The position numbers and the translations under genes were made by a program. 13,493 bases of DNA from a virus (Duplodnaviria > Heunggongvirae > Uroviricota > Caudoviricetes): the IMG/VR virus record IMGVR_UViG_2690316346_000006, positions 1 through 13,493 of that record; one strand, written 5' to 3'. The notes beneath the pieces are model-generated. The model ran no database searches and had not been told where the DNA came from. It saw only the letters and a program-made list of their open reading frames with translations. Position 1 is the first letter of the stretch. Each line of letters starts with the position of its first letter. This document shows, piece after piece, positions 1 through 13,493 of this stretch.

Positions 1-51
1 ATCGGGCATTATCTGAACATAAAACACTATCAATAAGTTGGAGTCATTACC
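1..51 (+). mobile_element. IS1 terminal fragment (insB-proximal end including the terminal inverted repeat); body of the element lies upstream of the window
   Basis: Positions 1-51 are the exact reverse complement of 9926-9976 and 13443-13493, and match the remembered IS1 end ...CATCGGGCATTATCTGAACATAAAACACTATCAATAAGTTGGAGTCATTACC. Confidence 0.85.
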
Positions 52-183
52 AAACGGTTGAAATGTATGCCGCTACTTACGGGTCCTGTAATCCTCTGAA
101 TAAACCAGAGGGAAAAGATGATTTCGACAAAATTTACCGCTTCTTGGAGGACCGCTATATCAAAAGCTTAGAGGACGCAGGGA

Positions 184-1283: not shown

Positions 1284-1477
1284 TATTCACCTCTGTGAGT
1301 TGCAGCAGCAATTTGGGCAATAATTTGTTCCATTTCCGCCATTACCTCATCATGCGGAATCGCCGGGCGGGGATCCGCGAGGCTTGCTGCTACTTTGGCC
1401 CGCAGCCATTCGTTGTAACTATTTTCTTGCTCAACTGTCTCAAATTCTGAAACCATTGGGGAAAGGACTGTACTCAT
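1283..1477 (-). CDS. paaA: small antitoxin, PaaA2-like, partner of the ParE-like toxin
   Basis: 64 aa, directly upstream of and overlapping the toxin gene. Segment SPMVSEFETVEQENSYNEWLRAKVAASLADPRPAIPHDEV matches my recollection of PaaA2 from the O157 paaR2-paaA2-parE2 system. AGGAGA lies 10 nt upstream of the ATG. Confidence 0.65.
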   Translation of the reverse strand: MSTVLSPMVSEFETVEQENSYNEWLRAKVAASLADPRPAIPHDEVMAEMEQIIAQIAAATHRGE

Positions 1478-1496
1478 TTTACATATCTCCTCTGAT

Positions 1497-1997
1497 TTAG
1501 GCGCGACGGCCTTTTTGTGCAGCTAACCACCGCGCAACCGTACGATCCATTGATTCTTTTTTATCTTTCATCTCCTGAAGCATGTGTTCTTGATCTTCTT
1601 TCGGAAAAGCTCTGAACGTATGGATTAAATCTCGTTCCATCGGCTCTACGGCAAACGGTAGTTCATCCTCTGTTTGTTCTGTGTCTGCTGGTAATGCGAC
1701 TATGTTATCTTGCTGTGGTTCTCGACAATACATCCTTGCAATTTGCAGCAAATCTACCATGTCTGGCCTGATTGACTCAGGGGGAACTTTCAGTAAGCCA
1801 GCAAACTTTAGAACAGCCTCAAGGTTTAGTGGGGTTTGACCATTTAGGTAGTGACTTACCGCCCCTTGTGTTGAAAACCCCATAATTTCCGCCGCACGTT
1901 CCTGAGTCAATCCCAACTGAGATTTCTTTGCCATCCAGATTTCTTTCAGTCTTCTGGCGGCGTTGAGGTCGGTGTCTGACAATGATTTTCTTTTCAT
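1497..1997 (-). CDS. cI-like HTH (XRE-family) repressor, probably PaaR2/RacR-like; ORF track extends to a GTG at 2027
   Basis: HTH motif region QLGLTQERAAEIMGFSTQGAVSHYLNG. Sits divergent to a Cro-like gene with a palindromic operator between them. The ATG at 1995-1997 (MKRKSL...) is favoured over the GTG at 2027, which has no Shine-Dalgarno. Confidence 0.7.
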   Translation of the reverse strand: MKRKSLSDTDLNAARRLKEIWMAKKSQLGLTQERAAEIMGFSTQGAVSHYLNGQTPLNLEAVLKFAGLLKVPPESIRPDMVDLLQIARMYCREPQQDNIVALPADTEQTEDELPFAVEPMERDLIHTFRAFPKEDQEHMLQEMKDKKESMDRTVARWLAAQKGRRA

Positions 1998-2027
1998 ACA
2001 TCCAATTCTAATAAGATTGCTAATCAC

Positions 2028-2108
2028 TTTGAAATAGTATCACTATTTACTTTTAAAAATAACAGTGCTATTAATTATGCATTGGTAACACATCACATAG
2101 GGCGGATT
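2028..2108. promoter_or_regulatory. divergent promoter/operator region between the repressor and the Cro-like gene; contains the palindrome AAATAGT-atc-ACTATTT (2032-2048)
   Basis: AT-rich 81-bp intergenic region between divergently oriented HTH genes. A perfect 7-bp inverted repeat with a 3-bp spacer is read directly from the sequence. Confidence 0.55.
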
Positions 2109-2372
2109 ATGAATCTTGGAGAATATTTGCATCATTTTCATATAACCCAGAGTTCATTTGCTGAGATTGTTGGCGCATCCCAAGGGATGGTCAGCCACGT
2201 TATAACGGGGCGTGCAAAACTTACAGGAGAAAAAATATTACGTTGGTGTGAAGCAACGGGATGGGTGGTGACCCCACATGAGATTGACAGTAAAACCTAC
2301 CCCAACCCAACTGACGGCTTGCCTGCTGAGTTTCAGGCTAACACACAACCATCGGCGGGGGTTGATTCATGA
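2109..2372 (+). CDS. ydaS: Cro-like HTH regulator (YdaS-like); ORF track start 2082, internal ATG at 2109 preferred
   Basis: HTH motif region ITQSSFAEIVGASQGMVSHVITG. Divergent from the repressor. GGGCGG lies 5 nt upstream of the ATG at 2109. Confidence 0.65.
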   Translation: MNLGEYLHHFHITQSSFAEIVGASQGMVSHVITGRAKLTGEKILRWCEATGWVVTPHEIDSKTYPNPTDGLPAEFQANTQPSAGVDS

Positions 2373-2794
2373 AAATCAAGCATGAACACATCCGCATGGC
2401 GATGAAAGCCTGGGCGCATCCGGACGGTGAAAAAGTTCCGGCAGCTGAAATAACCAGGGTTTATTTCGAACTGGGAATGACGTTTCCGGTTCTGCATAAC
2501 GACAGCAAGCACAACACGCTTTATCTCAACACCCAAAAGATTTTCCGTTGGCTGGATAAAGACACCCCTGACGCTGTTGAAAAAATTCAGGCGTTGTTAC
2601 CTGCGATCGAAAGGGCAATGCCACCTCCGCTGGTGGCTCGAATGCGCAGCCACAGTTCAGCTTATTTTCGGGAACTGGTGGAGACGCATGAACGACTGGT
2701 GAGAGACGCTGATGATTTTGTCGCAGTGGCAATCGCCGGTTTCAATCAGATGAACCGTGGTGGCCCGGCAGGAAATGCTGTGGCAGTACATTGA
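2369..2794 (+). CDS. ydaT: YdaT-like protein (proposed CII-like switch component in Rac-type prophages)
   Basis: 141 aa beginning MKIKHEH..., which matches my recollection of the YdaT N-terminus. Start overlaps the Cro-like stop (ATGA), indicating coupling. Confidence 0.5.
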   Translation: MKIKHEHIRMAMKAWAHPDGEKVPAAEITRVYFELGMTFPVLHNDSKHNTLYLNTQKIFRWLDKDTPDAVEKIQALLPAIERAMPPPLVARMRSHSSAYFRELVETHERLVRDADDFVAVAIAGFNQMNRGGPAGNAVAVH

Positions 2795-2865
2795 CTGACA
2801 ATAGCCATATCGAATCGCTCCCGGCAACTCGTGAGTAAAAAGATTCGGTATCAGAAGAGGTGAGT

Positions 2866-3930
2866 ATGGCTAACGCCTGGCTCAGATTATGGCATGACAT
2901 GCCAAATGACCCTAAGTGGCGAACAATTGCCAGGGTGTCAGGGCAGCCAATTGCAACAGTGATGGCAGTGTATATCCACCTCCTGGTGAGCGCGTCACGA
3001 AATGTCACGCGAGGTCACATTGATGTCACGACAGAAGATTTGGCAAGTGCGCTCGACGTGACAGAAGAGGTAATTGATTCAATTTTGCAGACGATGCAGG
3101 GGCGGGTACTTGATGGTGATTTAATCACTGGATGGGAAAAACGCCAGGTGCTTAAAGAGGACAACGGCAATATTTCGCAAACCGCAAAATCTCCTGCAGA
3201 GCGCAAGAGGGCGCAGCGAGAGAGGGAAAGAAAGCGGGAACAAAATGGCGATTGTCACGGCGCGTCACGAAATGTCACGCACATGTCACGACGAGTCACG
3301 ACAGATACAGATAAAGATACAGATAAAGAAGATCAAAACACTATGGTCCATGGCGTAAAAAACGCCACGAACCAGGCAGGGGATGTTCAGACCGTCAATC
3401 CTGGTCAGCCAGCAGGCTCGACACCGGAAGCCGATTCAGCGTATGCGCTGAAAGCCGATTCGGGCGCTGTGCAGCAGGTGATGACCGCAAGGCCGGAGCA
3501 ATCACTCCAACTGCAGCAGCCTGAAGCCGATTCCGCCATTCAGCGGGAAGCCGATCGGGTAGCCCCGGAAAACACCGGGCAGCCTGTGGGACGAGTGGAT
3601 TATCCGGATGTGTTCGAACAGGTCTGGCGGGAATACCCGTTGCGTGCCGGGGCAAACCCGAAGAAATCCGCATTCAGTGCCTGGAAGGCCAGATTGCGCG
3701 AGGGGGTGCCACCAGAGACCATGCTGGATGGTGTGAGGCGTTACGCGAGATACCTGGCGGCGACCGGGAAAGCGGGAACGGAATTTGTTCAGCGAGCGAC
3801 GACGTTTTTTGGGCCGGACCGGAATTTTGAAAACCCCTGGTTGCTCCCGGTAAGCGGCACGAACAACCAGCGTTGTGTGAATCATATTTCTGAACCGGAT
3901 ACCGAAATTCCGCCGGGATTCAGGGGGTGA
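2866..3930 (+). CDS. phage replication initiator 1 (O-like / YdaU-like), with origin iterons embedded in the coding sequence
   Basis: ATG at 2866 preceded by GAGGTG (track start GTG 2860). Lies immediately upstream of a DnaC-like gene. Contains two clusters of GTCACG direct repeats. C-terminus ends IPPGFRG, as in the second initiator. Confidence 0.7.
   Translation: MANAWLRLWHDMPNDPKWRTIARVSGQPIATVMAVYIHLLVSASRNVTRGHIDVTTEDLASALDVTEEVIDSILQTMQGRVLDGDLITGWEKRQVLKEDNGNISQTAKSPAERKRAQRERERKREQNGDCHGASRNVTHMSRRVTTDTDKDTDKEDQNTMVHGVKNATNQAGDVQTVNPGQPAGSTPEADSAYALKADSGAVQQVMTARPEQSLQLQQPEADSAIQREADRVAPENTGQPVGRVDYPDVFEQVWREYPLRAGANPKKSAFSAWKARLREGVPPETMLDGVRRYARYLAATGKAGTEFVQRATTFFGPDRNFENPWLLPVSGTNNQRCVNHISEPDTEIPPGFRG
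2993..3030 (+). repeat. iteron cluster 1 of putative origin 1: four GTCACG/GTCAC repeats at 10-11 bp spacing
   Basis: Repeats begin at 2993, 3003, 3014 and 3025, read directly from the sequence. Confidence 0.6.
3254..3300 (+). repeat. iteron cluster 2 of putative origin 1: five GTCACG repeats at 10-11 bp spacing, followed by an ACAGATA-rich AT-rich stretch
   Basis: Repeats begin at 3254, 3264, 3274, 3285 and 3295. The roughly 45-bp unit is near-identical to cluster 1. Confidence 0.6.
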
Positions 3931-3936
3931 TGTGGC

Positions 3937-4683
3937 ATGAAAAACATTGCGGCAGCCGGGGTTCTTGAACGTATTCACAGACTTGCACCACAGGGGGCGG
4001 TTCCACCGTACCGGACGGTGGAGGAGTGGCGGGAATGGCAACTTGCTGAAGGACGAAAACGCAGCGAGGAGATTAACCGCCAGAATCGCCAGTTGCGGGT
4101 GGAAAAAATCCTGAATCGTTCGGGCATCCAGCCTCTGCACAGCAAATGCTCGTTTGCGAATTATCAGGTGCAGAACGACGGGCAAAAATACGCGCTGAGC
4201 CAGGCCAAATCCATAGCTGACGAACTGATGACCGGGTGCACGAATTTTGTGTTCAGCGGTAAAACCGGCACCGGGAAAAATCACCTTGCAGCGGCGATGG
4301 GTAACCGGCTGATGGCGAAGGGGCGCAGCGTGATTATCGTCACCGAGTCTGATGTCATGAGCGTGTTGCATGACAGCTACGACAACGGCAAATCCGGTGA
4401 AAAATTTTTACAGGAGCTTTGCGGGGTTGATTTGCTGGTCCTGGATGAAATAGGCATTCAGCGGGAGACGAAAAACGAGCAGGTGGTATTGCACCAGATA
4501 ATTGATCGCCGGACAGCATCACTGTGCAGTGTCGGGATGTTAACAAACCTGAATCATGCCGCAATGAGCACGCTTCTTGGTGAGAGGATTATGGACCGCA
4601 TGACCATGAACGGTTGTCGGTGGGTGACGTTTAACTGGGATAGCTGGCGTTCAAATGTCAGCTTTCCGGGAGTTGTGAAGTAA
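3937..4683 (+). CDS. DnaC-like helicase loader (YdaV-like), copy 1
   Basis: 248 aa with Walker A-like SGKTGTGKNHLAAA and Walker B-like DLLVLDEIG, as in DnaC. Follows the initiator with 6-bp spacing. Confidence 0.85.
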   Translation: MKNIAAAGVLERIHRLAPQGAVPPYRTVEEWREWQLAEGRKRSEEINRQNRQLRVEKILNRSGIQPLHSKCSFANYQVQNDGQKYALSQAKSIADELMTGCTNFVFSGKTGTGKNHLAAAMGNRLMAKGRSVIIVTESDVMSVLHDSYDNGKSGEKFLQELCGVDLLVLDEIGIQRETKNEQVVLHQIIDRRTASLCSVGMLTNLNHAAMSTLLGERIMDRMTMNGCRWVTFNWDSWRSNVSFPGVVK

Positions 4684-4704
4684 TTTTTGTTGGAGGATGT
4701 TTTA

Positions 4705-5430
4705 ATGGAAACTGTATTTGACGCACTGAAAGCACTGAAAAGAGCCTCTTCACATGTGGTGGCGTCCCGCCTTGGAATCAGCCGTGAAGATGCGGTCAAC
4801 GAACTGTGGAAACTGAAGCGCCGTGGTGAAGCGGATAACAAGGGTTCGATGTGGTGGCTGATTCAGGCTGGTGAAAGTGAACCAGTGTCACCGGTACCGA
4901 AAGTGACAGCGCAAATGCTGACTGAGGCGATTGAACAACATGGCCCACAAACGGCGGATGAGCTGGCACTGATGTTCGGGATTACCTCCCGCCGGGCGAA
5001 TTCATCGCTGGCCATGGCAATCAGCAAAGGGCGTCTGATTCGCGTGAATCAGGGCGGTAAATTTCGGTACTGCATACCGGGCGCTGATTTACCGGCAGAG
5101 CCGAAAGCCGCATCCATAGCGGAAACGGATGGTAAAGTCTTTCCTCAGCCAGCAGGTGTTGCGTTACCGGTACAGGAAGCTGCAACACAGGAAGAAATTA
5201 AAACAGAAACTGTGGCGGACATTGTGCAGTCGTTGCCATCGTTCACCGAAACGCAAGCGGATGACCTGGTTTTACCATCGCTGCATATGGCAAACCGCGA
5301 ACTGCGTCGGGCGAAAAGTCATGTCCAGAAGTGGGAGCGTGTCTGCGCCGCGTTGCGGGAGCTGAACAAGCACCGGGATATTGTTCGACAGATTGTCGAT
5401 TCCTCCGGTCGTATTGTGTCGGAAAAGTGA
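4705..5430 (+). CDS. hypothetical protein, possibly YdaW-like; present only in module 1
   Basis: ORF track lists a TTG start at 4687; the ATG at 4705 has GGAGG 8 nt upstream. No catalytic motif recognised. Confidence 0.55.
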
Positions 5431-5445
5431 TTGCCGGGGGCGCTT

Positions 5446-5868
5446 ATGGCAAAAGTATTTACACAGGAAGAGCGGGAAAAAATTAAGGGGCAGGTTGTTG
5501 AACTCGTACGCCAGAGTGGGCGCGAGACGTTACGACAACTGGAAGCTAAAACCGGGGCGACAAGATATTTAATAAGCGTTCTCGCCAGAGAGCTGGTTGC
5601 CAGTGGGGATGTATACAACTCTGGCTACGGGTTATTCCCGTCTGAACAGGCTCGTAAGGACTGGCAAAACGCCCGCAAAAAACTCTCGAGGGCAAAGCTG
5701 AAGAAACCATCTGTGGTTGATCCGGACCTTATCTGGTCATTACCGGACGGAGAAATACGCCGCTACGACAGACATCAGAACATAATCTGTCGCGAGTGCC
5801 GGAAGAGTGAAGTTATGCAGCGTGTACCGGCTTTCTATCAGGGTGATTTTCAGGAGGCGGTACTGTGA
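5446..5868 (+). CDS. hypothetical protein (about 140 aa), paralog of 9117-9539
   Basis: ATG at 5446 preferred over the listed TTG at 5431. The C-terminal ~90 aa are near-identical to the 9117-9539 product; the N-terminal ~50 aa are diverged. Confidence 0.6.
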   Translation: MAKVFTQEEREKIKGQVVELVRQSGRETLRQLEAKTGATRYLISVLARELVASGDVYNSGYGLFPSEQARKDWQNARKKLSRAKLKKPSVVDPDLIWSLPDGEIRRYDRHQNIICRECRKSEVMQRVPAFYQGDFQEAVL

Positions 5869-6282
5869 GTGAAATTAGCTATCAGGCTTCAATTACCGCT
5901 GGCATTCGCATCAAAGGAGAGGAGCATGGAAATAAAACCAGAAGATGAGTTAAGCAATATTGTTTTATTTCCGGTAAAAGAGGATAACCCTCGTAATCAG
6001 GTTAATTTTCTTTATGAGCCATCGGAAAGACCATATTGCCATCACGCTTCTGTCCGGGTTGACGAAAAAGAGCGTCAGGTCCGCTGTAAAATCTGCGGTG
6101 CGGTTGTGGAGCCGTTTGACTGGATGCTCTCTGTGGCGAAAAGAGAAACCAGACTGGCAGATGATGTAAGGCTCTTGCGCCAGGAGGAGCGGGAAAGGCG
6201 AAAAAATATAGAAAAGCTAATCCAGATTGAGCGTAACGCGAAAGCGCGGATACGCAGGGCGACAAAATCCAGAACTGAATAA
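5869..6282 (+). CDS. hypothetical small protein with a putative zinc-ribbon motif (C-H-H ... C-x2-C); copy A
   Basis: Listed start is GTG at 5869. An internal ATG at 5926 has a strong Shine-Dalgarno (AAGGAGaggagcATG) and gives 118 aa. Motif YCHHASVRVDEKERQVRCKICG. Two further copies lie at 9540-9925 and 10695-11035. Confidence 0.6.
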   Translation: MKLAIRLQLPLAFASKERSMEIKPEDELSNIVLFPVKEDNPRNQVNFLYEPSERPYCHHASVRVDEKERQVRCKICGAVVEPFDWMLSVAKRETRLADDVRLLRQEERERRKNIEKLIQIERNAKARIRRATKSRTE

Positions 6283-6421: not shown

Positions 6422-7240
6422 TTAAGCAGCCATCTGATGATATTTTTCCCTGAAGGCTGCCGGGGAGATATTCCCCAGACGAGAGTGACGACGCTGACGA
6501 TTGTAGAAAATCTCAATGTATTCCCGTATTACTGAGATGGCTTCATCCCGGTTATTAAAACGATAGTGGCTCAGGCTCTCATTTTTCAGCGTTCCCCAGA
6601 AGCTTTCCATCGGAGCGTTGTCGTAACAGTTACCTTTACGCGACATTGATGTTTTCAGACCAGACTGCTCCTGTATGACCCGGTAATCGTATGCGCAGTA
6701 CTGTGAACCTCGATCAGAGTGGTGGATTAGCCCGGCAGGTGGGCGCTGGCTCCTGAGCGCCATAAACAGGGCTTTACCTGTCAGCTCTTTTGTCATGCGC
6801 TCTCCCATGGCGTAGCCGACAATTTCGCACGTATAAACATCTTTGATGCCAGCGAGGTACAACCATCCCTCCTGTGTGGCAACATACGTCAGGTCCGCCA
6901 CCCAGACCTGATTTGGTGCTGTAGGAGCGAACGTCTGGTTCAGCAGATTTGGCGCAACTGGCAGATTGTGGTTCGAGTTCGTAGTCGCTCTGAACTTGCG
7001 TTTCTGCTTACAGCGTAGCCTTAGCTCCTTACGAAGACGTGCCAGTCGGTCACGACCAACGATGATGCCATTCTCTGCCAGCTCCGTCTGGAGCCGCCGG
7101 GTTCCATATGTTTCGCGAGTGCGGATATGTGCCACCTTAATCTCCAGTTTTAGCCGCTCATCACTTTGTTTTCTGTCTGAGGGTTCATGCTGTACCCAGT
7201 TGTAATAACCGCTCCTGGATACACCAAATACCTGACACAT
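6422..7240 (-). CDS. IS3-family transposase OrfB (DDE catalytic part), expressed as an OrfAB fusion by -1 frameshifting
   Basis: 272-aa ORF with DDE-type transposase signatures (HSDRGSQY ... conserved acidic residues) in the -1 frame relative to orfA. Confidence 0.8.
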   Translation of the reverse strand: MCQVFGVSRSGYYNWVQHEPSDRKQSDERLKLEIKVAHIRTRETYGTRRLQTELAENGIIVGRDRLARLRKELRLRCKQKRKFRATTNSNHNLPVAPNLLNQTFAPTAPNQVWVADLTYVATQEGWLYLAGIKDVYTCEIVGYAMGERMTKELTGKALFMALRSQRPPAGLIHHSDRGSQYCAYDYRVIQEQSGLKTSMSRKGNCYDNAPMESFWGTLKNESLSHYRFNNRDEAISVIREYIEIFYNRQRRHSRLGNISPAAFREKYHQMAA

Positions 7241-7275
7241 CGCTTCAATGGGAAATTGTTGTCGCCATTGTTCGA

Positions 7276-7578
7276 TTAACGCGTATTTTTCAGCGACTCC
7301 TGTGCAAAATACGCTGTTGCTTTTTTTAATATATCTCGCTCAAGGCGAGCTTCATTTAACGCCTTACGCAGTTGCAGAATTTCAGATTCCAGTTCAGCCA
7401 CCGTGCGGGAACCAGGAGTACCGAGCCCTTTTCTGGCGGCGGTAACCCATTGTCCTAAAGTGCCTTCAGGAAGAGATAATCGGGAAGCGCCTTCACTGAT
7501 CGAAAGTTGATTTTCAAGAACCGTTCTGACAGCTTCGGCTTTGAACTCTTTAGAGTAACGTTGGGTTTTTCTGCTCAT
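7276..7578 (-). CDS. IS3-family transposase OrfA (HTH part)
   Basis: 100 aa, MSRKTQRYSKEFKAEAVRTV..., which I recognise as IS600/IS3-group OrfA. Confidence 0.8.
   Translation of the reverse strand: MSRKTQRYSKEFKAEAVRTVLENQLSISEGASRLSLPEGTLGQWVTAARKGLGTPGSRTVAELESEILQLRKALNEARLERDILKKATAYFAQESLKNTR
7320..7327 (-). promoter_or_regulatory. programmed -1 ribosomal frameshift site (A AAA AAG) within the orfA/orfB overlap of the IS3-family element
   Basis: Minus-strand sequence TTAAAAAAAGC lies where orfA and orfB overlap, as is typical of IS3-family elements. Confidence 0.6.
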
Positions 7579-7698
7579 TATTAGCTCCTTCTGATGCCAT
7601 TCTATTTCAGGAAGGAGTGTCCGTTAAACTCAGGCTACCTCAGGTTATTCGCTTCTGGGCATGGGCGGATCAACAAATGATAGACGGTAATGCAGATT

Positions 7699-7950
7699 GT
7701 AACGCTCGCGGCGTTACAAAAAGTGCAATAGATCGCATCACTTTTATGTCTGGTTTTGCTGATGCGTTAATTCAGGTTGGATGGCTGGTCGAAAATGACG
7801 GAGGGCTTTCTCTACCTAACTTTGAACGTCATAACGGAAAAAGCTCTAAAAAAAACGGGCGGTTACAAACGAGCGAGTAACAAAAATACGCGAACTGAAA
7901 CGAAAAGGTAACGCTGCCAGCGTTACACAAACGGATCAAAAAGCGTTACC
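7699..7950 (+). repeat. putative origin 2 binding sites: two copies of the palindrome GTAACGC-N5-GCGTTAC (7699-7717, 7908-7926) plus half-sites at 7862-7866 and 7943-7949
   Basis: Read directly from the sequence. Located inside the linker-coding region of initiator 2, analogous to the iterons inside initiator 1 but of a different sequence. Confidence 0.45.
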
Positions 7951-7952
7951 AG

Positions 7953-8000
7953 AGGAAGAGGAAGAGGAAGAGGAAGAGGAAGAGGAAGAGGAAGAGGAAG
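7953..8000 (+). repeat. perfect tandem hexanucleotide repeat (AGGAAG)8; encodes Glu16 in the frame that appears to be coding for the initiator 2 linker
   Basis: 48 bp of uninterrupted AGGAAG units counted directly from the sequence. Confidence 0.9.
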
Positions 8001-8355
8001 ATCTAAATACTGATCTCCCCCTCGCCAAAAACGAGCGTCTAAAAAATTCGAGCCGGAGGCTATTGAGCTGCCCGATTGGTTGCCGGAAACACTCTGGCAT
8101 GAGTGGGTCCGGTTCAGACAGGCATTGCGAAAACCGATTCGAACGGAGCAGGGCGCTAACGGGGCGATACGGGAACTGGAAAAATTCCGTCAGCAGGGTT
8201 TTACACCTGAGCAGGTGATTCGACACAGCATCGCCAATGAATACCAGGGCCTGTTCGCGCCGAAAGGTGTTCGGCCTGAGACGTTGCTCCGACAGGTTAA
8301 CACCGTCTCGTTGCCGGACAGTGCGATCCCGCCAGGCTTCAGGGGGTAACGGACC

Positions 8356-9102
8356 ATGAAAAATATTGCGACAGGCGGCGTTCTGGAACGCATCCGCCGA
8401 CTGACCCCGCCACATGTAACCGCCCCATTCAGAACGGTAGCGGAGTGGCGCGAGTGGCAACTTGCTGAAGGCCAGAAACGTAGCGAGGAGATCAACCGCC
8501 TGAATCGCCAGTTGCGGGTGGAAAAAATTCTGAATCGCTCAGGCATCCAGCCGTTGCACCGTAAATGCTCGTTTGCGAATTACCAGGTGCAGAACGACGG
8601 CCAGCGATACGCGTTAAGCCAGGCGAAATCCATCGCCGATGAACTGATGACCGGGTGTACAAATTTTGCGTTCAGCGGAAAACCTGGTACCGGGAAGAAT
8701 CACTTAGCGGCAGCTATCGGGAATCGCCTGCTGAAAGACGGTCAGACAGTGATTGTGGTTACCGTGGCTGATGTTATGAGCGCCCTGCACGCCAGCTATG
8801 ACGACGGGCAGTCAGGCGAAAAATTTTTGCGGGAGCTGTGCGAAGTGGATCTGCTGGTTCTTGATGAAATTGGCATTCAGCGCGAGACGAAAAACGAGCA
8901 GGTGGTGCTGCACCAGATTGTTGATCGCCGGACAGCGTCGATGCGCAGCGTGGGGATGCTGACAAACCTGAACTATGAGGTGATGAAAACATTGCTCGGC
9001 GAGCGGGTGATGGATCGCATGGTCATGAACGGCGGGCGCTGGGTGAATTTTAACTGGGAGAGCTGGCGTCCGAATGTTAGCCATTCGAGGGTTGTTAAGT
9101 AG
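8356..9102 (+). CDS. DnaC-like helicase loader, copy 2 (roughly 85% amino-acid identity to copy 1 by eye)
   Basis: 248 aa with SGKPGTGKNHLAAA and DLLVLDEIG motifs; same length and architecture as 3937-4683. Confidence 0.85.
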   Translation: MKNIATGGVLERIRRLTPPHVTAPFRTVAEWREWQLAEGQKRSEEINRLNRQLRVEKILNRSGIQPLHRKCSFANYQVQNDGQRYALSQAKSIADELMTGCTNFAFSGKPGTGKNHLAAAIGNRLLKDGQTVIVVTVADVMSALHASYDDGQSGEKFLRELCEVDLLVLDEIGIQRETKNEQVVLHQIVDRRTASMRSVGMLTNLNYEVMKTLLGERVMDRMVMNGGRWVNFNWESWRPNVSHSRVVK

Positions 9103-9116
9103 TTTCAGGAGGATTT

Positions 9117-9539
9117 ATGGCGAAACCTTTTACTCCCGAACAGCGGGAAGAACTGAAGACGCGAATTGTGGAACTCGTGCATCAGGACGGTCGGGTCACG
9201 ATTCGGCAGTTGTCAGATGAAACAGGTATCAGTCGTGCGTCTGTCGGTCGCTTATGCATAGAACTGGTCGCAAGTGGTGATGTATATAATTCTGGCTACG
9301 GCTTATTCCCGTCTGAACAGGCTCGCAAGGACTGGCAAAGCGCCCGCAAAAAACTCTCGAGAGTAAAGGTGAGGAAACCGGTTGTTGTTGATCCGGACCT
9401 TATCTGGTCATTACCTGACGGAGAAATACGCCGCTACGACAGGCGCCTGAATATAATCTGTCGCGAGTGCCGGAAGAGCGAAGCTATGCAGCGTGTACTG
9501 GCTTTCTATCAGGGTAATTTTCAGGAGGCGATACTGTGA
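9117..9539 (+). CDS. hypothetical protein, paralog of 5446-5868 with a diverged N-terminus
   Basis: 140 aa; C-terminal region (ELVASGDVYNSGYGLFPSEQARKDWQ ... IICRECRKSE ...) nearly identical to copy 1. Confidence 0.6.
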   Translation: MAKPFTPEQREELKTRIVELVHQDGRVTIRQLSDETGISRASVGRLCIELVASGDVYNSGYGLFPSEQARKDWQSARKKLSRVKVRKPVVVDPDLIWSLPDGEIRRYDRRLNIICRECRKSEAMQRVLAFYQGNFQEAIL

Positions 9540-10007
9540 ATGAAATTAGCTATCAGGCTTCAATTACCGCTGGCATTCGCATCAAAGGAGAGGAGCATGG
9601 AAATAAAACCAGAAGATGAGTTAAGCAATATTGTTTTATTTCCGGTAAAAGAGGATAACCCACGTAATCAGGTTAATTTTCTTTATGAACCATCGGAAAG
9701 ACCATATTGCCATCACGCCTCTGTCCGGGTTGACGAAAAAGAGCGTCAGGTCCGCTGTAAAATTTGCGGTGCAGTTGTGGAGCCATTTGACTGGATGCTC
9801 TCTGTGGCGAAAAGAGAAACCAGACTGGCAGATGATGTAAGGCTATTGCGCCAGGAGGAACAGGAAAGGCGGAGAAATATAGAAAAGCTGATACAGATTG
9901 AGCGTAACGCGAAAGCGCGGATACGCGGTAATGACTCCAACTTATTGATAGTGTTTTATGTTCAGATAATGCCCGATGACTTTGTCATGCAGCTCCACCG
10001 ATTTTGA
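9540..10007 (+). pseudogene. zinc-ribbon small gene copy B, 3'-truncated at 9925 by IS1; the ORF reads on into IS1, giving a chimeric 26-aa tail
   Basis: Homology to copy A ends exactly at the IS1 end (...gcgcggatacgc|ggtaatgac). Translation continues ...ARIR then [26 protein letters not shown] from the IS1 sequence. Confidence 0.7.
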
Positions 10008-10445
10008 GAACGACAGCGACTTCCGTCCCAGCCGTGCCAGGTGCTGCCTCAGATTCAGGTTATGCCGCTCAATTCGCTGCGTATATCGCTTGCTGATTAC
10101 GTGCAGCTTTCCCTTCAGGCGGGATTCATACAGCGGCCAGCCATCCGTCATCCATATCACCACGTCAAAGGGTGACAGCAGGCTCATAAGACGCCCCAGC
10201 GTCGCCATAGTGCGTTCACCGAATACGTGCGCAACAACCGTCTTCCGGAGACTGTCATACGCGTAAAACAGCCAGCGCTGGCGCGATTTAGCCCCGACAT
10301 AGCCCCACTGTTCGTCCATTTCCGCGCAGACGATGACGTCACTGCCCGGCTGTATGCGCGAGGTTACCGACTGCGGCCTGAGTTTTTTAAGTGACGTAAA
10401 ATCGTGTTGAGGCCAACGCCCATAATGCGTGCAGTTGCCCGGCAT
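9942..10445 (-). CDS. insB: IS1 InsB (expressed as an InsAB' fusion by frameshifting)
   Basis: 167 aa, ...[62 protein letters not shown]..., recognised as IS1 InsB. Confidence 0.9.
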
Positions 10446-10639
10446 CCAACGCCATTCATGGCCATATCAATGATTTTCTGGTGCGTACCGGGTTGAGAAG
10501 CGGTGTAAGTGAACTGCAGTTGCCATGTTTTACGGCAGTGAGAGCAGAGATAGCGCTGATGTCCGGCAGTGCTTTTGCCGTTACGCACCACCCCGTCAGT
10601 AGCTGAACAGGAGGGACAGCTGATAGAAACAGAAGCCAC
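10364..10639 (-). CDS. insA: IS1 InsA
   Basis: 91 aa, [42 protein letters not shown]..., recognised as IS1 InsA. Confidence 0.9.
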
Positions 10640-10694
10640 TGGAGCACCTCAAAAACACCATCATACACTAAATCAGTAAGTTGGCAGCATCACC

Positions 10695-11035
10695 AAGATG
10701 AGTTAAGCAATATCGTTTTATTTCCGGTAAAAGAGGATGACCCTCGTAATCAGGTTAATTTTCTTTATGAGCCATCGGAAAGACCATATTGCCATCACGC
10801 CTCTGTACGGGTTGACGAAAAAGAGCGTCAGGTCCGCTGTAAAATCTGCGGTGCGGTTGTGGAGCCGTTTGACTGGATGCTCTCTGTGGCAAAAAGAGAA
10901 ACCAGACTGGCAGATGATGTAAGGCTATTGCGCCAGGAGGAACAGGAAAGGCGGAGAAATATAGAAAAGCTGATACAGATTGAGCGTAACGCGAAAGCGC
11001 GGATACGCAGGGCGACAAAATCCAGAACTGAATAA
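10695..11035 (+). pseudogene. zinc-ribbon small gene copy C, 5'-truncated (lacks the first ~5 codons); mosaic of copies A and B
   Basis: Begins abruptly at the IS1 end with aagatgagttaagc..., matching codon 6 onward of copy A. Its 5' half carries copy-A-type variants and its 3' half copy-B-type variants. Stop at 11033-11035. Confidence 0.65.
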
Positions 11036-12857: not shown

Positions 12858-13195
12858 AAGGAAACAAAACAGAAACAGCAATTGCCGTTACCTGTTGTTA
12901 CCATGGCAAGTAAACGTATCTCAGGCGAGCGCATTGCGCCGTTCTGACGCAGATAAACTAGCCTGGATAGATGGTGCTGGCAATAAAAAATAGCGTTTTC
13001 TTATCGGTGTCGGTAAGATTGCTGCGGGTGCTTGAGGCTGTCTGCCTCGGGTATGTCACTGTAAGGCAGACAGAGAAAAGCCCCAGTTAACATTACGCGT
13101 CCTGCAAGACGCTTAACATTAATCTGAGGCCCAATCTATGTCTCACAAATGTAGGTTAGCCTCTTACGTGCCGAAAGGCAAGGAGAAGCAGGCTA

Positions 13196-13350
13196 TGAAG
13201 CAGCAAAAGGCGATGTTAATCGCCCTGATCGTCATCTGTTTAACCGTCATTGTGACGGCACTGGTAACGAGGAAAGACCTCTGCGAGGTACGAATCCGAA
13301 TCGGCCAGACGGAGGTCGCTGTTTTCGTAGACTACGAATCTAGAGAGTAA
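13196..13350 (+). CDS. hok: Hok/Gef-family type I toxin (closest by memory to HokD/RelF or HokC)
   Basis: MKQQKAMLIALIVICLTVIVTALVTRKDLCEVRIRIGQTEVAVFVDYESRE; AAGGAG lies 9 nt upstream of the ATG at 13196. The ORF track extends in frame to an ATG at 13138. Confidence 0.85.
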
Positions 13351-13442
13351 GAGTGACCAGGCGGGAGAGTAATCTCCCGCCACCTTTGATGTGTCAGGCA
13401 TCCTCAACGCACCCGCACTTAACCCGTTTCGGCGGTTTTTTT

Positions 13443-13493
13443 GGTAATGACTCCAACTTATTGATAGTGTTTTATGTTCAGATAATGCCCGAT
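13443..13493 (-). mobile_element. IS1 terminal fragment (insB-proximal end), element in minus orientation with its body downstream of the window
   Basis: Identical to 9926-9976 and the exact reverse complement of 1-51. Confidence 0.85.

What the first reader, a model, noticed from the sequence alone, without database searches (positions are those of the whole stretch)
2993..3300. Two helically phased GTCACG iteron clusters inside initiator 1, mirrored as a repeat in the protein
Four and then five GTCACG units at 10-11 bp spacing form two clusters about 260 bp apart, both inside the initiator coding sequence, followed by an AT-richer ACAGATA stretch. This is the lambda-type arrangement of an origin within the O gene. 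The near-identical 45-bp units also encode repeated SRNVT(R/H)...VTTxD peptide segments, so the protein sequence is constrained by the DNA site. Two clusters rather than one is unusual.
Basis: partly seen in the sequence, partly recalled or inferred. Interest (0 to 1): 0.55.

Follow-up and report, generated by a model that had tools for sequence, protein, structure and literature searches.

The report
Two-part replication origin inside initiator gene
A prophage replication-initiator gene carries two arrays of a six-base repeat, one of them written into the codons of the protein's own DNA-binding domain. Both arrays are conserved, and change motif together, in related phages, so this looks like a lambda-style origin with an extra, apparently undescribed upstream array.

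Summary
GTCACG occurs at 2994, 3004 and 3025, with GTCACA at 3014 and an inverted copy at 3057-3062. It occurs again at 3254, 3264, 3274, 3285 and 3295, always 10-11 bp apart. All copies lie inside a 354-aa initiator ORF (2866-3930).

Array 2 is followed by the least stable, A-rich GATA(A/C)A run (3300-3340) and a 13-bp-stem palindrome (3344-3374). This is the lambda ori layout.

Among 57 distinct homologous N-domains, 49 carry the same motif in both arrays. The motif switches in both arrays together: GTCACG, GTAACG, CGAACGC, and GCAACG in Ralstonia phage Firinga. Codons inside the hexamers are frozen at synonymous sites, while neighbouring codons are saturated. The hexamers are read in three reading frames, so selection acts on the DNA.

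Lambda O has only one array. Three other initiator N-domains with no detectable similarity also show N-domain copies plus a linker array.

Best reading: an iteron origin bound by the initiator's winged-helix-like N-domain, with array 2 plus the A-rich run as the core and array 1 as a conserved auxiliary site. Binding, origin activity and the role of array 1 are inferred, not shown. I rate it a new variant of a known kind.

The parts
2866..3930 (+). Initiator ('replisome organizer') gene, 354 aa. It has a winged-helix-like N-domain (aa 1-95), a disordered basic/acidic linker (aa 96-200), and a C-terminal module ending in a DnaT-like IPPGFRG tail.
   Evidence: ORF and translation. phrog_3729 'replication initiation protein', E 3e-250. 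No Pfam hit. TIGR01714 is sub-threshold at 15.4 bits against a cut-off of 49.8. AF2 model: H3-14, H16-25, H29-45, loop, H56-63, H67-77, beta wing, then low-pLDDT linker.
2994..3030 (+). Array 1: four phased units (GTCACG 2994, GTCACG 3004, GTCACA 3014, GTCACG 3025). They lie in codons 43-55, which form the end of helix 29-45, the loop, and the strand before the helix-turn-helix. The units are read in three reading frames.
   Evidence: Synonymous sites are frozen in 19 homologues. The array is present with the same motif as array 2 in 49 of 57 distinct N-domains.
3057..3062 (-). Inverted iteron copy (CGTGAC on the + strand) in codons 64-66 (D-V-T), at the N-cap of the putative recognition helix 67-77.
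   Evidence: V65 is GTG in 16 of 16 homologues. The site reads CGTTAC at the same position in the GTAACG-type homologue L023.
3254..3300 (+). Array 2: five exact GTCACG units (3254, 3264, 3274, 3285, 3295) in codons 130-145 of the disordered linker. This is the putative core initiator-binding array of the origin.
   Evidence: It is conserved and directly abuts the A-rich run in the homologues that carry the arrays. Hexamers are invariant while spacers vary.
3300..3340 (+). A-rich GATA(A/C)A hexamer run, the putative DNA unwinding element. The top strand is purine/A-rich.
   Evidence: GC 30% and AT skew 0.64. It holds the least stable 30-mers of 2500-4700 and has no ssDNA structure. Copy number varied between about 3 and 11 units in the six E. 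coli sequences compared. The same AGATACAGATAAAGAT run follows different iterons in K-12 Rac ydaU.
3344..3374 (.). Imperfect palindrome TGGTCCATGGCGT-AAAAA-ACGCCACGAACCA directly right of the A-rich run.
   Evidence: The ssDNA fold z-score is -4.78 on the bottom strand and -2.94 on the top strand. Inverted repeats are enriched at this position across 33 loci (48% against 16% of controls with stems of 6 bp or more, p = 7e-8). The segment is shared at 94% identity with an initiator that has an unrelated N-domain.
3856..3927 (+). C-terminal tail (aa 331-354) resembling the C-terminus of primosomal protein DnaT. It is the likely contact for the loader.
   Evidence: NF002770 matches the tail only, E 0.0016. 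PDB DnaT chains 6aep and 2ru8 match at E about 0.02. The same tail occurs in K-12 YdaU.
3937..4683 (+). DnaC-like helicase loader, 248 aa, 80% identical to K-12 Rac YdaV.
   Evidence: PRK12377 at 499 bits against a cut-off of 389, and IstB_IS21. Comparison with YdaV.

Best explanation
This is the replication origin of a Rac-like lambdoid prophage, embedded in the initiator's own gene and built from two arrays of the same short iteron.

Shown:
- The hexamers are under DNA-level selection.
- They recur every 10-11 bp, about one helical turn, and all direct-repeat units point the same way.
- The two arrays always carry the same motif, and they switch motif together when the N-terminal domain diverges.
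- Array 2 abuts the least stable, A-rich repeat run, which is followed by a palindrome.
- The motif travels with the N-domain, not with the neighbouring loader or with the C-terminal module.

Inferred:
- The initiator's winged-helix-like N-domain binds each unit as a head-to-tail array.
- Array 2 plus the A-rich run is the core, lambda-type origin, where the duplex opens.
- The C-terminal module, with its DnaT-like tail, recruits the DnaC-like loader (3937-4683) to place host DnaB on the opened strands.
- Array 1, together with its inverted copy, is an auxiliary binding array about 230-270 bp upstream. It lets initiator oligomers bridge or wrap the intervening DNA and raises occupancy of the core.

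Because array 1 lies inside the codons of the N-domain, recombination cannot separate the binding sites from the domain that presumably reads them.
For: Clustering. 8 exact + strand copies in 307 nt against 0.07 expected. None of 20,000 protein-preserving codon shuffles reached 8.

DNA-level selection (19 non-redundant homologues).
- V47 GTC 19/19, T48 ACG 19/19, G50 GGT 19/19, H51 CAC 18/18, V54 GTC 19/19, T55 ACG 18/19, A43 GCG 17/19, S44 TCA 18/19, V65 GTG 16/16.
- The spacer codon R49, and invariant residues elsewhere in the domain, have codon entropy of 1.3-2.4 bits.
- The units are read in three frames (A-S-R, V-T, G-H), so the tandem repeat exists in the DNA and not in the protein.

Co-variation.
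- 49 of 57 distinct N-domains have at least 2 chained units of one motif in both arrays: GTCACG 28, CGAACGC 16, GTAACG 5.
- Ralstonia phage Firinga (37% aa identity) has GCAACG at ORF nt 130-182 and 401-431.
- In L023 the inverted copy reads CGTTAC where the GTCACG type reads CGTGAC.

Lambda-like core.
- Array 2 occupies codons 130-145; the lambda iterons occupy codons 117-145.
- The A-rich run has 30% GC and holds the least stable 30-mers in 2500-4700.
- A palindrome follows at 3344-3374.

Modularity.
- The same N-domain and motif occur with a lambda-P-like loader. Firinga, with GCAACG, is followed by DnaB.
- The same C-terminal module occurs with an unrelated N-domain and different iterons.

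Fold. The AF2 model, weak Foldseek hits restricted to winged-helix factors, and a sub-threshold HTH_Crp_2 match all point to a winged helix.

Core versus auxiliary. Some homologues have array 2 plus the A-rich run but no array 1. No homologue examined has the reverse.
Against: - There is no experiment. Neither initiator binding nor origin firing has been shown for this family. I found no paper describing these repeats.
- The distance between arrays varies (209-360 bp, median 252). Its helical phase is only weakly concentrated (R = 0.32, and the sequences are not independent). A rigid, phase-dependent loop is therefore unlikely.
- Among 21 close E. coli haplotypes the hexamers are not depleted of polymorphism: 4 variable sites in 54 nt, against 16 in 350 nt elsewhere. 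The numbers are small and many of these prophages may be cryptic.
- Array 1 is absent in some relatives (L027, L033, L145, L034, L036, L232, Mwe-JY25), so it is not indispensable for the family.
- The structural assignment rests on a model of moderate confidence (pLDDT 71.5) and non-significant fold hits (E > 0.1).
- The 57 N-domains represent only about four independent motif switches.
Confidence: 0.7

Rival explanations
1. Array 1 is a control site and not part of the origin. Initiator bound inside the 5' part of its own gene could block or slow RNA polymerase, giving autoregulation of initiator and loader. Alternatively it could pair with array 2 of the same or a sister molecule to limit firing, as the second iteron sets of P1 (incA) and F (incC) plasmids do by handcuffing (own knowledge).
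For: The two arrays share a motif but lie in different contexts, and only array 2 abuts the A-rich run. Array 1 is dispensable in some lineages. Both arrays lie inside the transcribed unit, with array 1 about 130 nt after the start codon. Inter-array helical phasing is loose.
Against: Nothing in the sequence separates positive from negative action. A lytic phage origin needs runaway replication, not copy control. No promoter-like signal beyond chance was found in the region (3 found, 2.8 expected). This rival is compatible with the best explanation in every respect except the sign of array 1's effect.
Confidence: 0.25
2. Array 1 is a cis-capture pad. With coupled transcription and translation, the N-domain is complete while the polymerase is still within a few hundred bases. 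Sites inside the N-domain codons would then let the nascent initiator load onto the very genome that encodes it. That would give cis preference over co-resident prophages of the same specificity.
For: N-domain-embedded copies of the cognate iteron recur in three further initiator N-domains with no detectable similarity to this one: window 7698-7718, L279 and K-12 ydaU. Up to four copies of this initiator type occur per E. coli genome, so competition between identical specificities is realistic.
Against: This is purely an inference and no tool here can test it. Lambda O, which lacks such a site, still functions. Physical linkage of site and reader explains the same recurrence more simply.
Confidence: 0.1
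3. The repeats are protein-level repeats. A repeated peptide such as SRNVT..VTT is needed twice in the protein, and the DNA periodicity is a by-product.
For: Similar peptides occur at aa 42-58 and 132-149.
Against: Within each array the hexamer is read in three different frames, so no peptide tandem repeat exists. Four-fold degenerate sites inside the hexamers are fixed while spacer codons and other invariant residues vary freely. Protein-preserving codon shuffles never reach the observed count. Array 2 lies in a segment modelled as disordered, with pLDDT about 50 or lower.
Confidence: 0.02
4. The hexamers are read by something other than the initiator: a host factor, a neighbouring phage regulator (RacR, YdaS or YdaT-like), or an RNA-level element in the mRNA.
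For: All direct-repeat units lie on the coding strand, which an RNA signal would also require. Unit 4 and the inverted copy could pair.
Against: The motif follows the N-domain across hosts (Escherichia, Pseudomonas, Bordetella, Ralstonia and others) and across different neighbouring genes and loaders. A host factor would not switch motif with the N-domain. RNA folds are not better than shuffles (z = -1.31 and +0.96). A 10-11 nt period has no obvious rationale in RNA. There is no Rfam hit in the region.
Confidence: 0.05

Closest known systems
Phage lambda ori inside gene O
   Same: Initiator-binding repeats lie inside the initiator ORF at the junction of the N- and C-terminal parts: lambda iterons at O codons 117-145, array 2 here at codons 130-145. 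Next comes a run that is A-rich on the top strand, then a palindrome. The N-domain and its sites form one specificity module, and the C-terminal part pairs with the loader.
   Different: - The protein is not an O homologue (no Pfam hit).
- The sites are 6-bp direct repeats every 10-11 bp, not four 18-19-bp inverted repeats.
- Lambda has no iteron-like site in its N-domain codons, whereas this family has a second, co-varying array there.
- The loader is DnaC-like, not P.
Bacillus phage SPP1 replisome organizer G38P and oriL
   Same: The origin is embedded in the organizer gene, with repeated boxes bound by the organizer next to an AT-rich DUE. The organizer has no AAA+ domain and works with a separate loader. 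G38P also binds a second discrete region, oriR (PMC5737612).
   Different: Sequence membership in the replisome-organizer N-domain models is not met (TIGR01714 15.4 bits against 49.8; PF09681 E 0.1). SPP1's second site is reported as distant in the genome (own knowledge: about 32 kb). It is not 260 bp away inside the same domain-coding sequence.
Satellite phage P4 ori plus crr (own knowledge; no paper retrieved)
   Same: Two separate clusters of one short iteron (TGTTCACC in P4) are bound by the same initiator, and both are needed in cis: a bipartite origin.
   Different: P4's clusters are about 4.5 kb apart. The initiator is a primase-helicase (alpha). The clusters are not written into the DNA-binding-domain codons.
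SaPI/PICI origins
   Same: Short penta- or hexanucleotide iterons are recognised by a winged-helix domain and arranged as two sets around an AT-rich region (PMC9371898).
   Different: SaPI iterons lie downstream of the rep ORF, flank the AT-rich region on both sides and point in opposite directions. The Rep is a self-loading helicase. Here both arrays are upstream of the A-rich run, share one orientation and lie inside the ORF.
Rac prophage replication module (oriJ; racR-ydaS-ydaT-ydaU-ydaV)
   Same: The gene order is the same. The loader is 80% identical to YdaV. The IPPGFRG tail and the AGATACAGATAAAGAT run after the linker repeats are also shared. Rac is reported to have an active origin, oriJ (PMC3945230).
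   Different: The YdaU N-domain (DUF1376) shows no similarity to this N-domain, and its repeats differ (RTGTTSAA). The sequence-level definition of oriJ could not be checked, because Potrykus et al. 2000 is not held.

Membership tests
Lambda-type origin embedded in the initiator gene | Several initiator-binding repeats inside the initiator ORF, between the N- and C-terminal domains | tested here: met
   Five units at codons 130-145. The position matches that of the lambda iterons. Binding itself was not tested.
Lambda-type origin embedded in the initiator gene | An adjacent AT-rich, strand-asymmetric, easily melted segment | tested here: met
   3300-3339 has 30% GC and AT skew 0.64. It holds the least stable 30-mers of 2500-4700. 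The run is conserved in the homologues that carry the arrays.
Lambda-type origin embedded in the initiator gene | A palindrome to the right of the AT-rich segment | tested here: met
   3344-3374, with ssDNA z-scores of -4.78 and -2.94. Inverted repeats are enriched at this position across 33 loci.
Lambda-type origin embedded in the initiator gene | Iterons are 18-19-bp inverted repeats bound by initiator dimers | tested here: not met
   The units are 6-bp direct repeats with a 10-11 bp period. Flanking positions are only weakly biased.
Lambda-type origin embedded in the initiator gene | Initiator homologous to lambda O (Phage_rep_O) | tested here: not met
   No Pfam family at E <= 0.01. The PHROG is phrog_3729.
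Lambda-type origin embedded in the initiator gene | The fragment supports initiator-dependent replication | not testable with these tools
   Needs an origin-plasmid assay.
Phage replisome organizer N-terminal domain (TIGR01714 / PF09681) | The N-domain scores above the curated cut-off of the family model | tested here: not met
   TIGR01714 scores 15.4 bits against a cut-off of 49.8, E 0.015. PF09681 scores 13 bits against 23.3, E 0.1. RefSeq annotations nevertheless call close relatives 'phage replisome organizer'.
Bipartite iteron origins (P4 ori/crr type) | Two separated clusters of the same initiator-binding motif | tested here: met
   Arrays at 2994-3030 and 3254-3300. The same motif occurs in both arrays in 49 of 57 N-domains, across motif classes.
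Bipartite iteron origins (P4 ori/crr type) | Both clusters are required in cis for replication | not testable with these tools
   Needs deletion or synonymous recoding of array 1. Natural loss of array 1 in some relatives suggests it is not universally required.
DnaT (primosomal protein I) | A full-length match to the DnaT equivalog model | tested here: not met
   NF002770 scores 18.1 bits against a cut-off of 201, and only the last 24 residues match. PDB DnaT chains match the tail only.
Rac YdaU (DUF1376) initiators | Homology of the N-terminal domain to YdaU | tested here: not met
   BLASTP aligns only the C-terminal 19 residues and a low-complexity stretch. There is no DUF1376 hit.
DnaC-like helicase loader (downstream partner gene) | The AAA+ loader model scores above its cut-off | tested here: met
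   PRK12377 scores 499 bits against 389. The DnaC equivalog scores 296 bits against 357, so it is DnaC-like and not DnaC itself.

The most novel reading that the evidence does not exclude
Writing the initiator's binding sites into the codons of its own DNA-binding domain may be a general, selected design in temperate-phage replication modules.

It would make site and reader a single unit that recombination cannot split. A base change in an iteron is also a residue change in the loop or helix cap next to the helix-turn-helix (for example CAC/His against AAC/Asn in L025 against L021 and L023). It may also let nascent protein load in cis on its own genome.

The recurrence in four initiator N-domains with no mutual sequence similarity would then reflect convergence on this design.
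Probability: 0.15. Interest if true: 0.85.

Novelty: new variant of a known kind. Interest (0 to 1): 0.62.

Why it matters
Prevalence. This initiator type is present in about 40% of complete E. coli genomes (2205 of 5426), including many STEC prophages. Related forms occur in Pseudomonas, Bordetella, Serratia and Ralstonia phages. Despite this, I found no description of its origin.

What the comparison provides:
- A sequence-level origin prediction: core array, unwinding run and palindrome.
- A set of natural specificity variants (GTCACG, GTAACG, CGAACGC, GCAACG) that can be used for swap experiments.
- A clean example of dual coding, in which a protein-binding DNA array is superimposed in three reading frames on a folded domain.

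If array 1 proves functional, it adds a bipartite, self-embedded layout to the textbook lambda model. It would also bear on how mosaic phages keep initiator and origin matched, and on interference between co-resident prophages.

Tried and rejected
- RNA-level reading. Folds of both arrays are no better than shuffles (z = -1.31 and +0.96). There is no Rfam family in the region.
- Promoter and terminator scan of 1400-4800. Counts were at chance level. The only notable hit is the 3344-3374 palindrome.
- Helical phasing between arrays. The distance is 209-360 bp and phase concentration is weak (R = 0.32). I do not use it as evidence for a rigid loop.
- Polymorphism among 21 close E. coli haplotypes. 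The hexamers show no depletion (4 of 54 nt against 16 of 350 nt). The result is inconclusive.
- Domain assignment. Pfam, NCBIfam and PDB sequence searches gave no significant family for the N-domain. The Foldseek PDB search gave only E > 0.1 hits, all to winged-helix factors, which is suggestive only.
- DnaA-box-like TATATCCAC at 2966-2974. It is not conserved at the DNA level in homologues (sequences), so I dropped it.
- IMG/VR scan with alignment A1. It returned only near-identical E. coli sequences. Scans seeded with distant members were needed instead.
- Literature. Searches on oriJ, GTCACG plus iteron, replisome organizer plus iterons, Eru replication types, and P4 crr found no description of these repeats. 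Potrykus et al. 2000 on oriJ plasmids is not held.
Full report
**1. What is in the sequence**

The window carries a Rac-like early region.
- racR-like repressor, 1497-2027 on the minus strand.
- ydaS-like gene, 2082-2372.
- ydaT-like gene, 2369-2794.
- A 354-aa ORF at 2866-3930, with ATG six bases after the GTG listed by the ORF finder and a GAGGTG Shine-Dalgarno sequence.
- A DnaC-like loader at 3937-4683.

The 354-aa protein is phrog_3729, 'replication initiation protein' (E 3e-250). It has no Pfam family. It only grazes the replisome-organizer N-domain models: TIGR01714 at 15.4 bits against a cut-off of 49.8, and PF09681 at E 0.1. Its last 24 residues resemble the C-terminus of DnaT. The loader is 80% identical to K-12 Rac YdaV. 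The initiator, however, shares only the IPPGFRG tail with Rac YdaU.

**2.

- Array 1: GTCACG at 2994, 3004 and 3025, and GTCACA at 3014. An exact inverted copy lies at 3057-3062.
- Array 2: GTCACG at 3254, 3264, 3274, 3285 and 3295.
- Spacings are 10, 10, 11 bp and 10, 10, 11, 10 bp.
- The rest of the 13.5-kb window holds three copies.
- The Poisson probability of 8 or more copies in 307 nt is 1.6e-14. In 20,000 shuffles of synonymous codons that keep the protein, the count never exceeded 6.

They are a 21-nt identical core (2990-3010 = 3260-3280) inside copies that are 64-72% identical.

**3. Selection acts on the DNA, not the peptide**

Array 1 covers codons 43-55. Its hexamers are read in three different frames: GCG-TCA-CGA, GTC-ACG, and GGT-CAC. 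The protein therefore has no tandem repeat there.

I compared 19 non-redundant homologues that align without gaps. Codons inside the hexamers are essentially fixed:
- V47 GTC 19/19, T48 ACG 19/19, G50 GGT 19/19, H51 CAC 18/18.
- V54 GTC 19/19, T55 ACG 18/19, A43 GCG 17/19, S44 TCA 18/19.
- V65 GTG 16/16, in the inverted copy.

The spacer codon R49, and invariant residues elsewhere in the domain, have codon entropies of 1.3-2.4 bits, so synonymous sites there are saturated. It came out in favour of a DNA site.

**4. The two arrays co-vary**

One genome per species gave 36 loci from gamma- and beta-proteobacteria. Three IMG/VR scans and five phage records added more.

After removing near-duplicates there are 57 distinct N-domains. 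Of these, 49 carry at least two chained units of one motif in both arrays:
- GTCACG in 28.
- CGAACGC in 16.
- GTAACG in 5.

Ralstonia phage Firinga is only 37% identical and is followed by a DnaB helicase. It has a further motif, GCAACG, at ORF nt 130, 140, 151, 161 and 182, and again at 401, 411, 421 and 431.

In L023 (GTAACG type) the inverted copy reads CGTTAC, at the position where the GTCACG type reads CGTGAC. Unit spacing is 10 bp in 86 cases and 11 bp in 27 cases. Flanking positions are only weakly biased.

Within E. coli, two sequences of the second type share the five array 2 hexamers but differ in the spacers between them (L040 and L041).

Parallel change of a multi-copy motif in two places 250 bp apart is hard to explain except by one reader protein for both arrays. 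The motif follows the N-domain and not its neighbours. GTCACG occurs with a DnaC-like loader here, and with a lambda-P-like loader in a second E. coli type and in Pseudomonas phage phi1.

**5. Array 2 is a lambda-type core origin**

- Array 2 is followed directly by a GATA(A/C)A run at 3300-3340.
- That run has 30% GC and an A-rich top strand. It holds the least stable 30-mers between 2500 and 4700, and it has no single-strand structure.
- An imperfect 13-bp-stem palindrome follows at 3344-3374. Its ssDNA z-score is -4.78 on the bottom strand.
- Across 33 loci, perfect stems of 6 bp or more occur just after the A-rich run in 48% of cases, against 16% of control segments (p = 7e-8).

Lambda ori shows the same order at nearly the same codon positions: iterons, a run that is A-rich on the top strand, then a palindrome.

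The A-rich run and what follows it are exchangeable. K-12 ydaU has different repeats followed by the same AGATACAGATAAAGAT. An O157:H7 initiator with an unrelated N-domain shares the window protein's sequence from just after the run onward. So the specificity module (N-domain plus both arrays) ends at the unwinding element.

Copy number of the GATA(A/C)A unit ranged from about 3 to 11 in the six E. coli sequences compared. Iteron numbers were stable within each type. A second type has six units in array 1, an insertion of 21 bp that equals two units and seven codons.

**6. Array 1 is the new feature**

The AF2 model (pLDDT 71.5) places array 1 on the end of helix 29-45, the following loop, and the short strand before the helix-turn-helix (H56-63, H67-77, then a beta wing). 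The inverted copy sits on the N-cap of the putative recognition helix. Array 2 lies in the linker, where pLDDT is about 50 or lower.

Fold hits are weak (E > 0.1), but all are to winged-helix factors.

Lambda O has no iteron-like site in its N-domain codons. Some relatives lack array 1 but keep a reduced array 2 plus the A-rich run (L027, L033, L145). Others lack it in different contexts (L034, L036, L232, Mwe-JY25). No homologue examined has array 1 without array 2. I therefore read array 2 plus the run as the core and array 1 as a conserved auxiliary array.

Its role cannot be decided here. The distance between arrays varies from 209 to 360 bp with only weak phase preference. Short-term polymorphism is uninformative.

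**7. The layout recurs in other initiators**

Three other initiators, with no detectable similarity to this N-domain, show the same two-site layout.
- The window's second, IS-disrupted initiator (7617-8349) has a palindromic site GTAACG-N7-CGTTAC at 7699-7717 in its N-domain codons. The site recurs at 7908-7926, plus a half site, before a (GAGGAA)n run.
- The O157:H7 initiator has AAGGGGCTT at gene nt 185 and 196 (with a degenerate third unit at 207) and at 441, 452 and 463, before a (GAACAG)n run. This is conserved in relatives of 77-80% identity.
- K-12 ydaU has RTGTTSAA twice in the N-domain and four times in the linker.

These cases were only partly followed up.

**8. Mechanism**

Shown: DNA-level selection, co-variation between arrays, one-turn spacing, adjacency to the least stable segment, and module boundaries.

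Inferred: the N-domain binds the units head to tail; the duplex opens at 3300-3340; the C-terminal module with its DnaT-like tail brings the DnaC-like loader and host DnaB; and array 1 raises or shapes occupancy of the core, for example by bridging about 250 bp.

Rivals for array 1 are an autoregulatory or handcuffing control site and a cis-capture pad for nascent initiator. A purely protein-level repeat, a different reader protein, and an RNA element are each contradicted by the data.

**9. Comparison and novelty**

The core works like lambda ori and like SPP1 oriL (PMC5737612). The use of two clusters resembles P4 ori/crr (own knowledge). The short iterons read by a winged helix resemble SaPI origins (PMC9371898).

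Membership in the lambda O, TIGR01714/PF09681, DnaT and YdaU families fails on sequence criteria.

I found no paper describing these repeats or the N-domain-embedded array. The oriJ plasmid paper could not be read. I rate the finding as a new variant of a known kind, of moderate to high interest, and directly testable.

Noticed in passing
window 7617-8349 (with 6422-7610): A second initiator gene is disrupted. An IS3-family element (transposase ORFs 6422-7240 and 7276-7578, minus strand) cuts its 5' end, and the reading frame is broken. It has its own palindromic iteron, GTAACG-N7-CGTTAC, at 7699-7717 in the N-domain codons. The iteron recurs at 7908-7926 with a half site at 7944-7949, followed by a (GAGGAA)n run at 7950-8000. 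A second DnaC-like gene follows at 8356-9102.
   Followed up: partly
L279 (NZ_CP012802.1, CDS 381-1472) and relatives L312-L332: An O157:H7 prophage initiator has an unrelated N-domain but the same C-terminal module as the window protein. It carries AAGGGGCTT at gene nt 185 and 196 (with a degenerate third unit at 207) inside the N-domain codons, and at 441, 452 and 463 in the linker, followed by a (GAACAG)n run. The layout is conserved in relatives of 77-80% identity.
   Followed up: partly
L001 3267-3578 (E. coli K-12 Rac ydaU): RTGTTSAA occurs 7 times in 7 kb. Six copies lie in ydaU: two in the DUF1376 N-domain codons (3267, 3352) and four in the linker (3511, 3544, 3556, and 3571 on the minus strand). 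They lie just upstream of the AAAGATACAGATAAAGAT run also seen in the window. This may be the sequence-level oriJ.
   Followed up: partly
window 3344-3374; L004, L011, L019 just after their A-rich runs: A palindrome or hairpin follows the unwinding run. In three beta-proteobacterial loci the hairpin has a conserved loop, TCACT(A/T)CGTTC, with different but complementary stems (CACCTACC/GGTAGGTG, CCTCCTCT/AGAGGAGG, CCCACC/GGTGGG). This looks like compensatory change in a single-strand structure.
   Followed up: partly
window 3303-3335 and E. coli relatives L038, L039, L042: The GATA(A/C)A hexamer run varies between about 3 and 11 units in the six E. coli sequences compared, changing the protein by (T/K)D dipeptide steps. 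The analogous (GAGGAA)n run of the second initiator type is annotated as frameshifted in L278.
   Followed up: partly
window 1-54, 9927-10694, 13440-13493: The same 51-54-nt sequence occurs at both ends of the window (inverted at 1-54) and at 9927-9977. From memory I recognise it as the terminal repeat of IS1, and I infer a 768-bp IS1 at 9927-10694, which fits the 1082-bp spacing of the repeats that flank it; no tool confirmed the identity or the far end. On that reading the window is bounded by IS1 ends, and the internal copy is flanked by about 300-nt near-identical repeats (9613-9912 and 10695-10994), with a third copy at 5942-6241.
   Followed up: no
window 13026-13200: A sok antitoxin RNA (Rfam RF01794, 118 bits), which implies a hok/sok-type toxin-antitoxin locus at the right end of the window.
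   Followed up: no
L034, L036, L232 (ORF nt about 300-360): Relatives that lack array 1 carry an inserted domain with the peptide motif ...YVYY...VGIS.NPW.R, which from memory resembles the T5orf172 family; I did not scan it against any domain library. Their repeats differ (ACTACGTA-type) and are clustered at the start of the insert, with no A-rich run after them.
   Followed up: no
window 4687-6282 and 9117-9539: Downstream of each loader lie DUF1627 and DUF977 genes of unknown function and a gene with a sub-threshold Zn-ribbon match (21.2 bits against a cut-off of 29). The DUF977 gene is duplicated with the second replication module.
   Followed up: no
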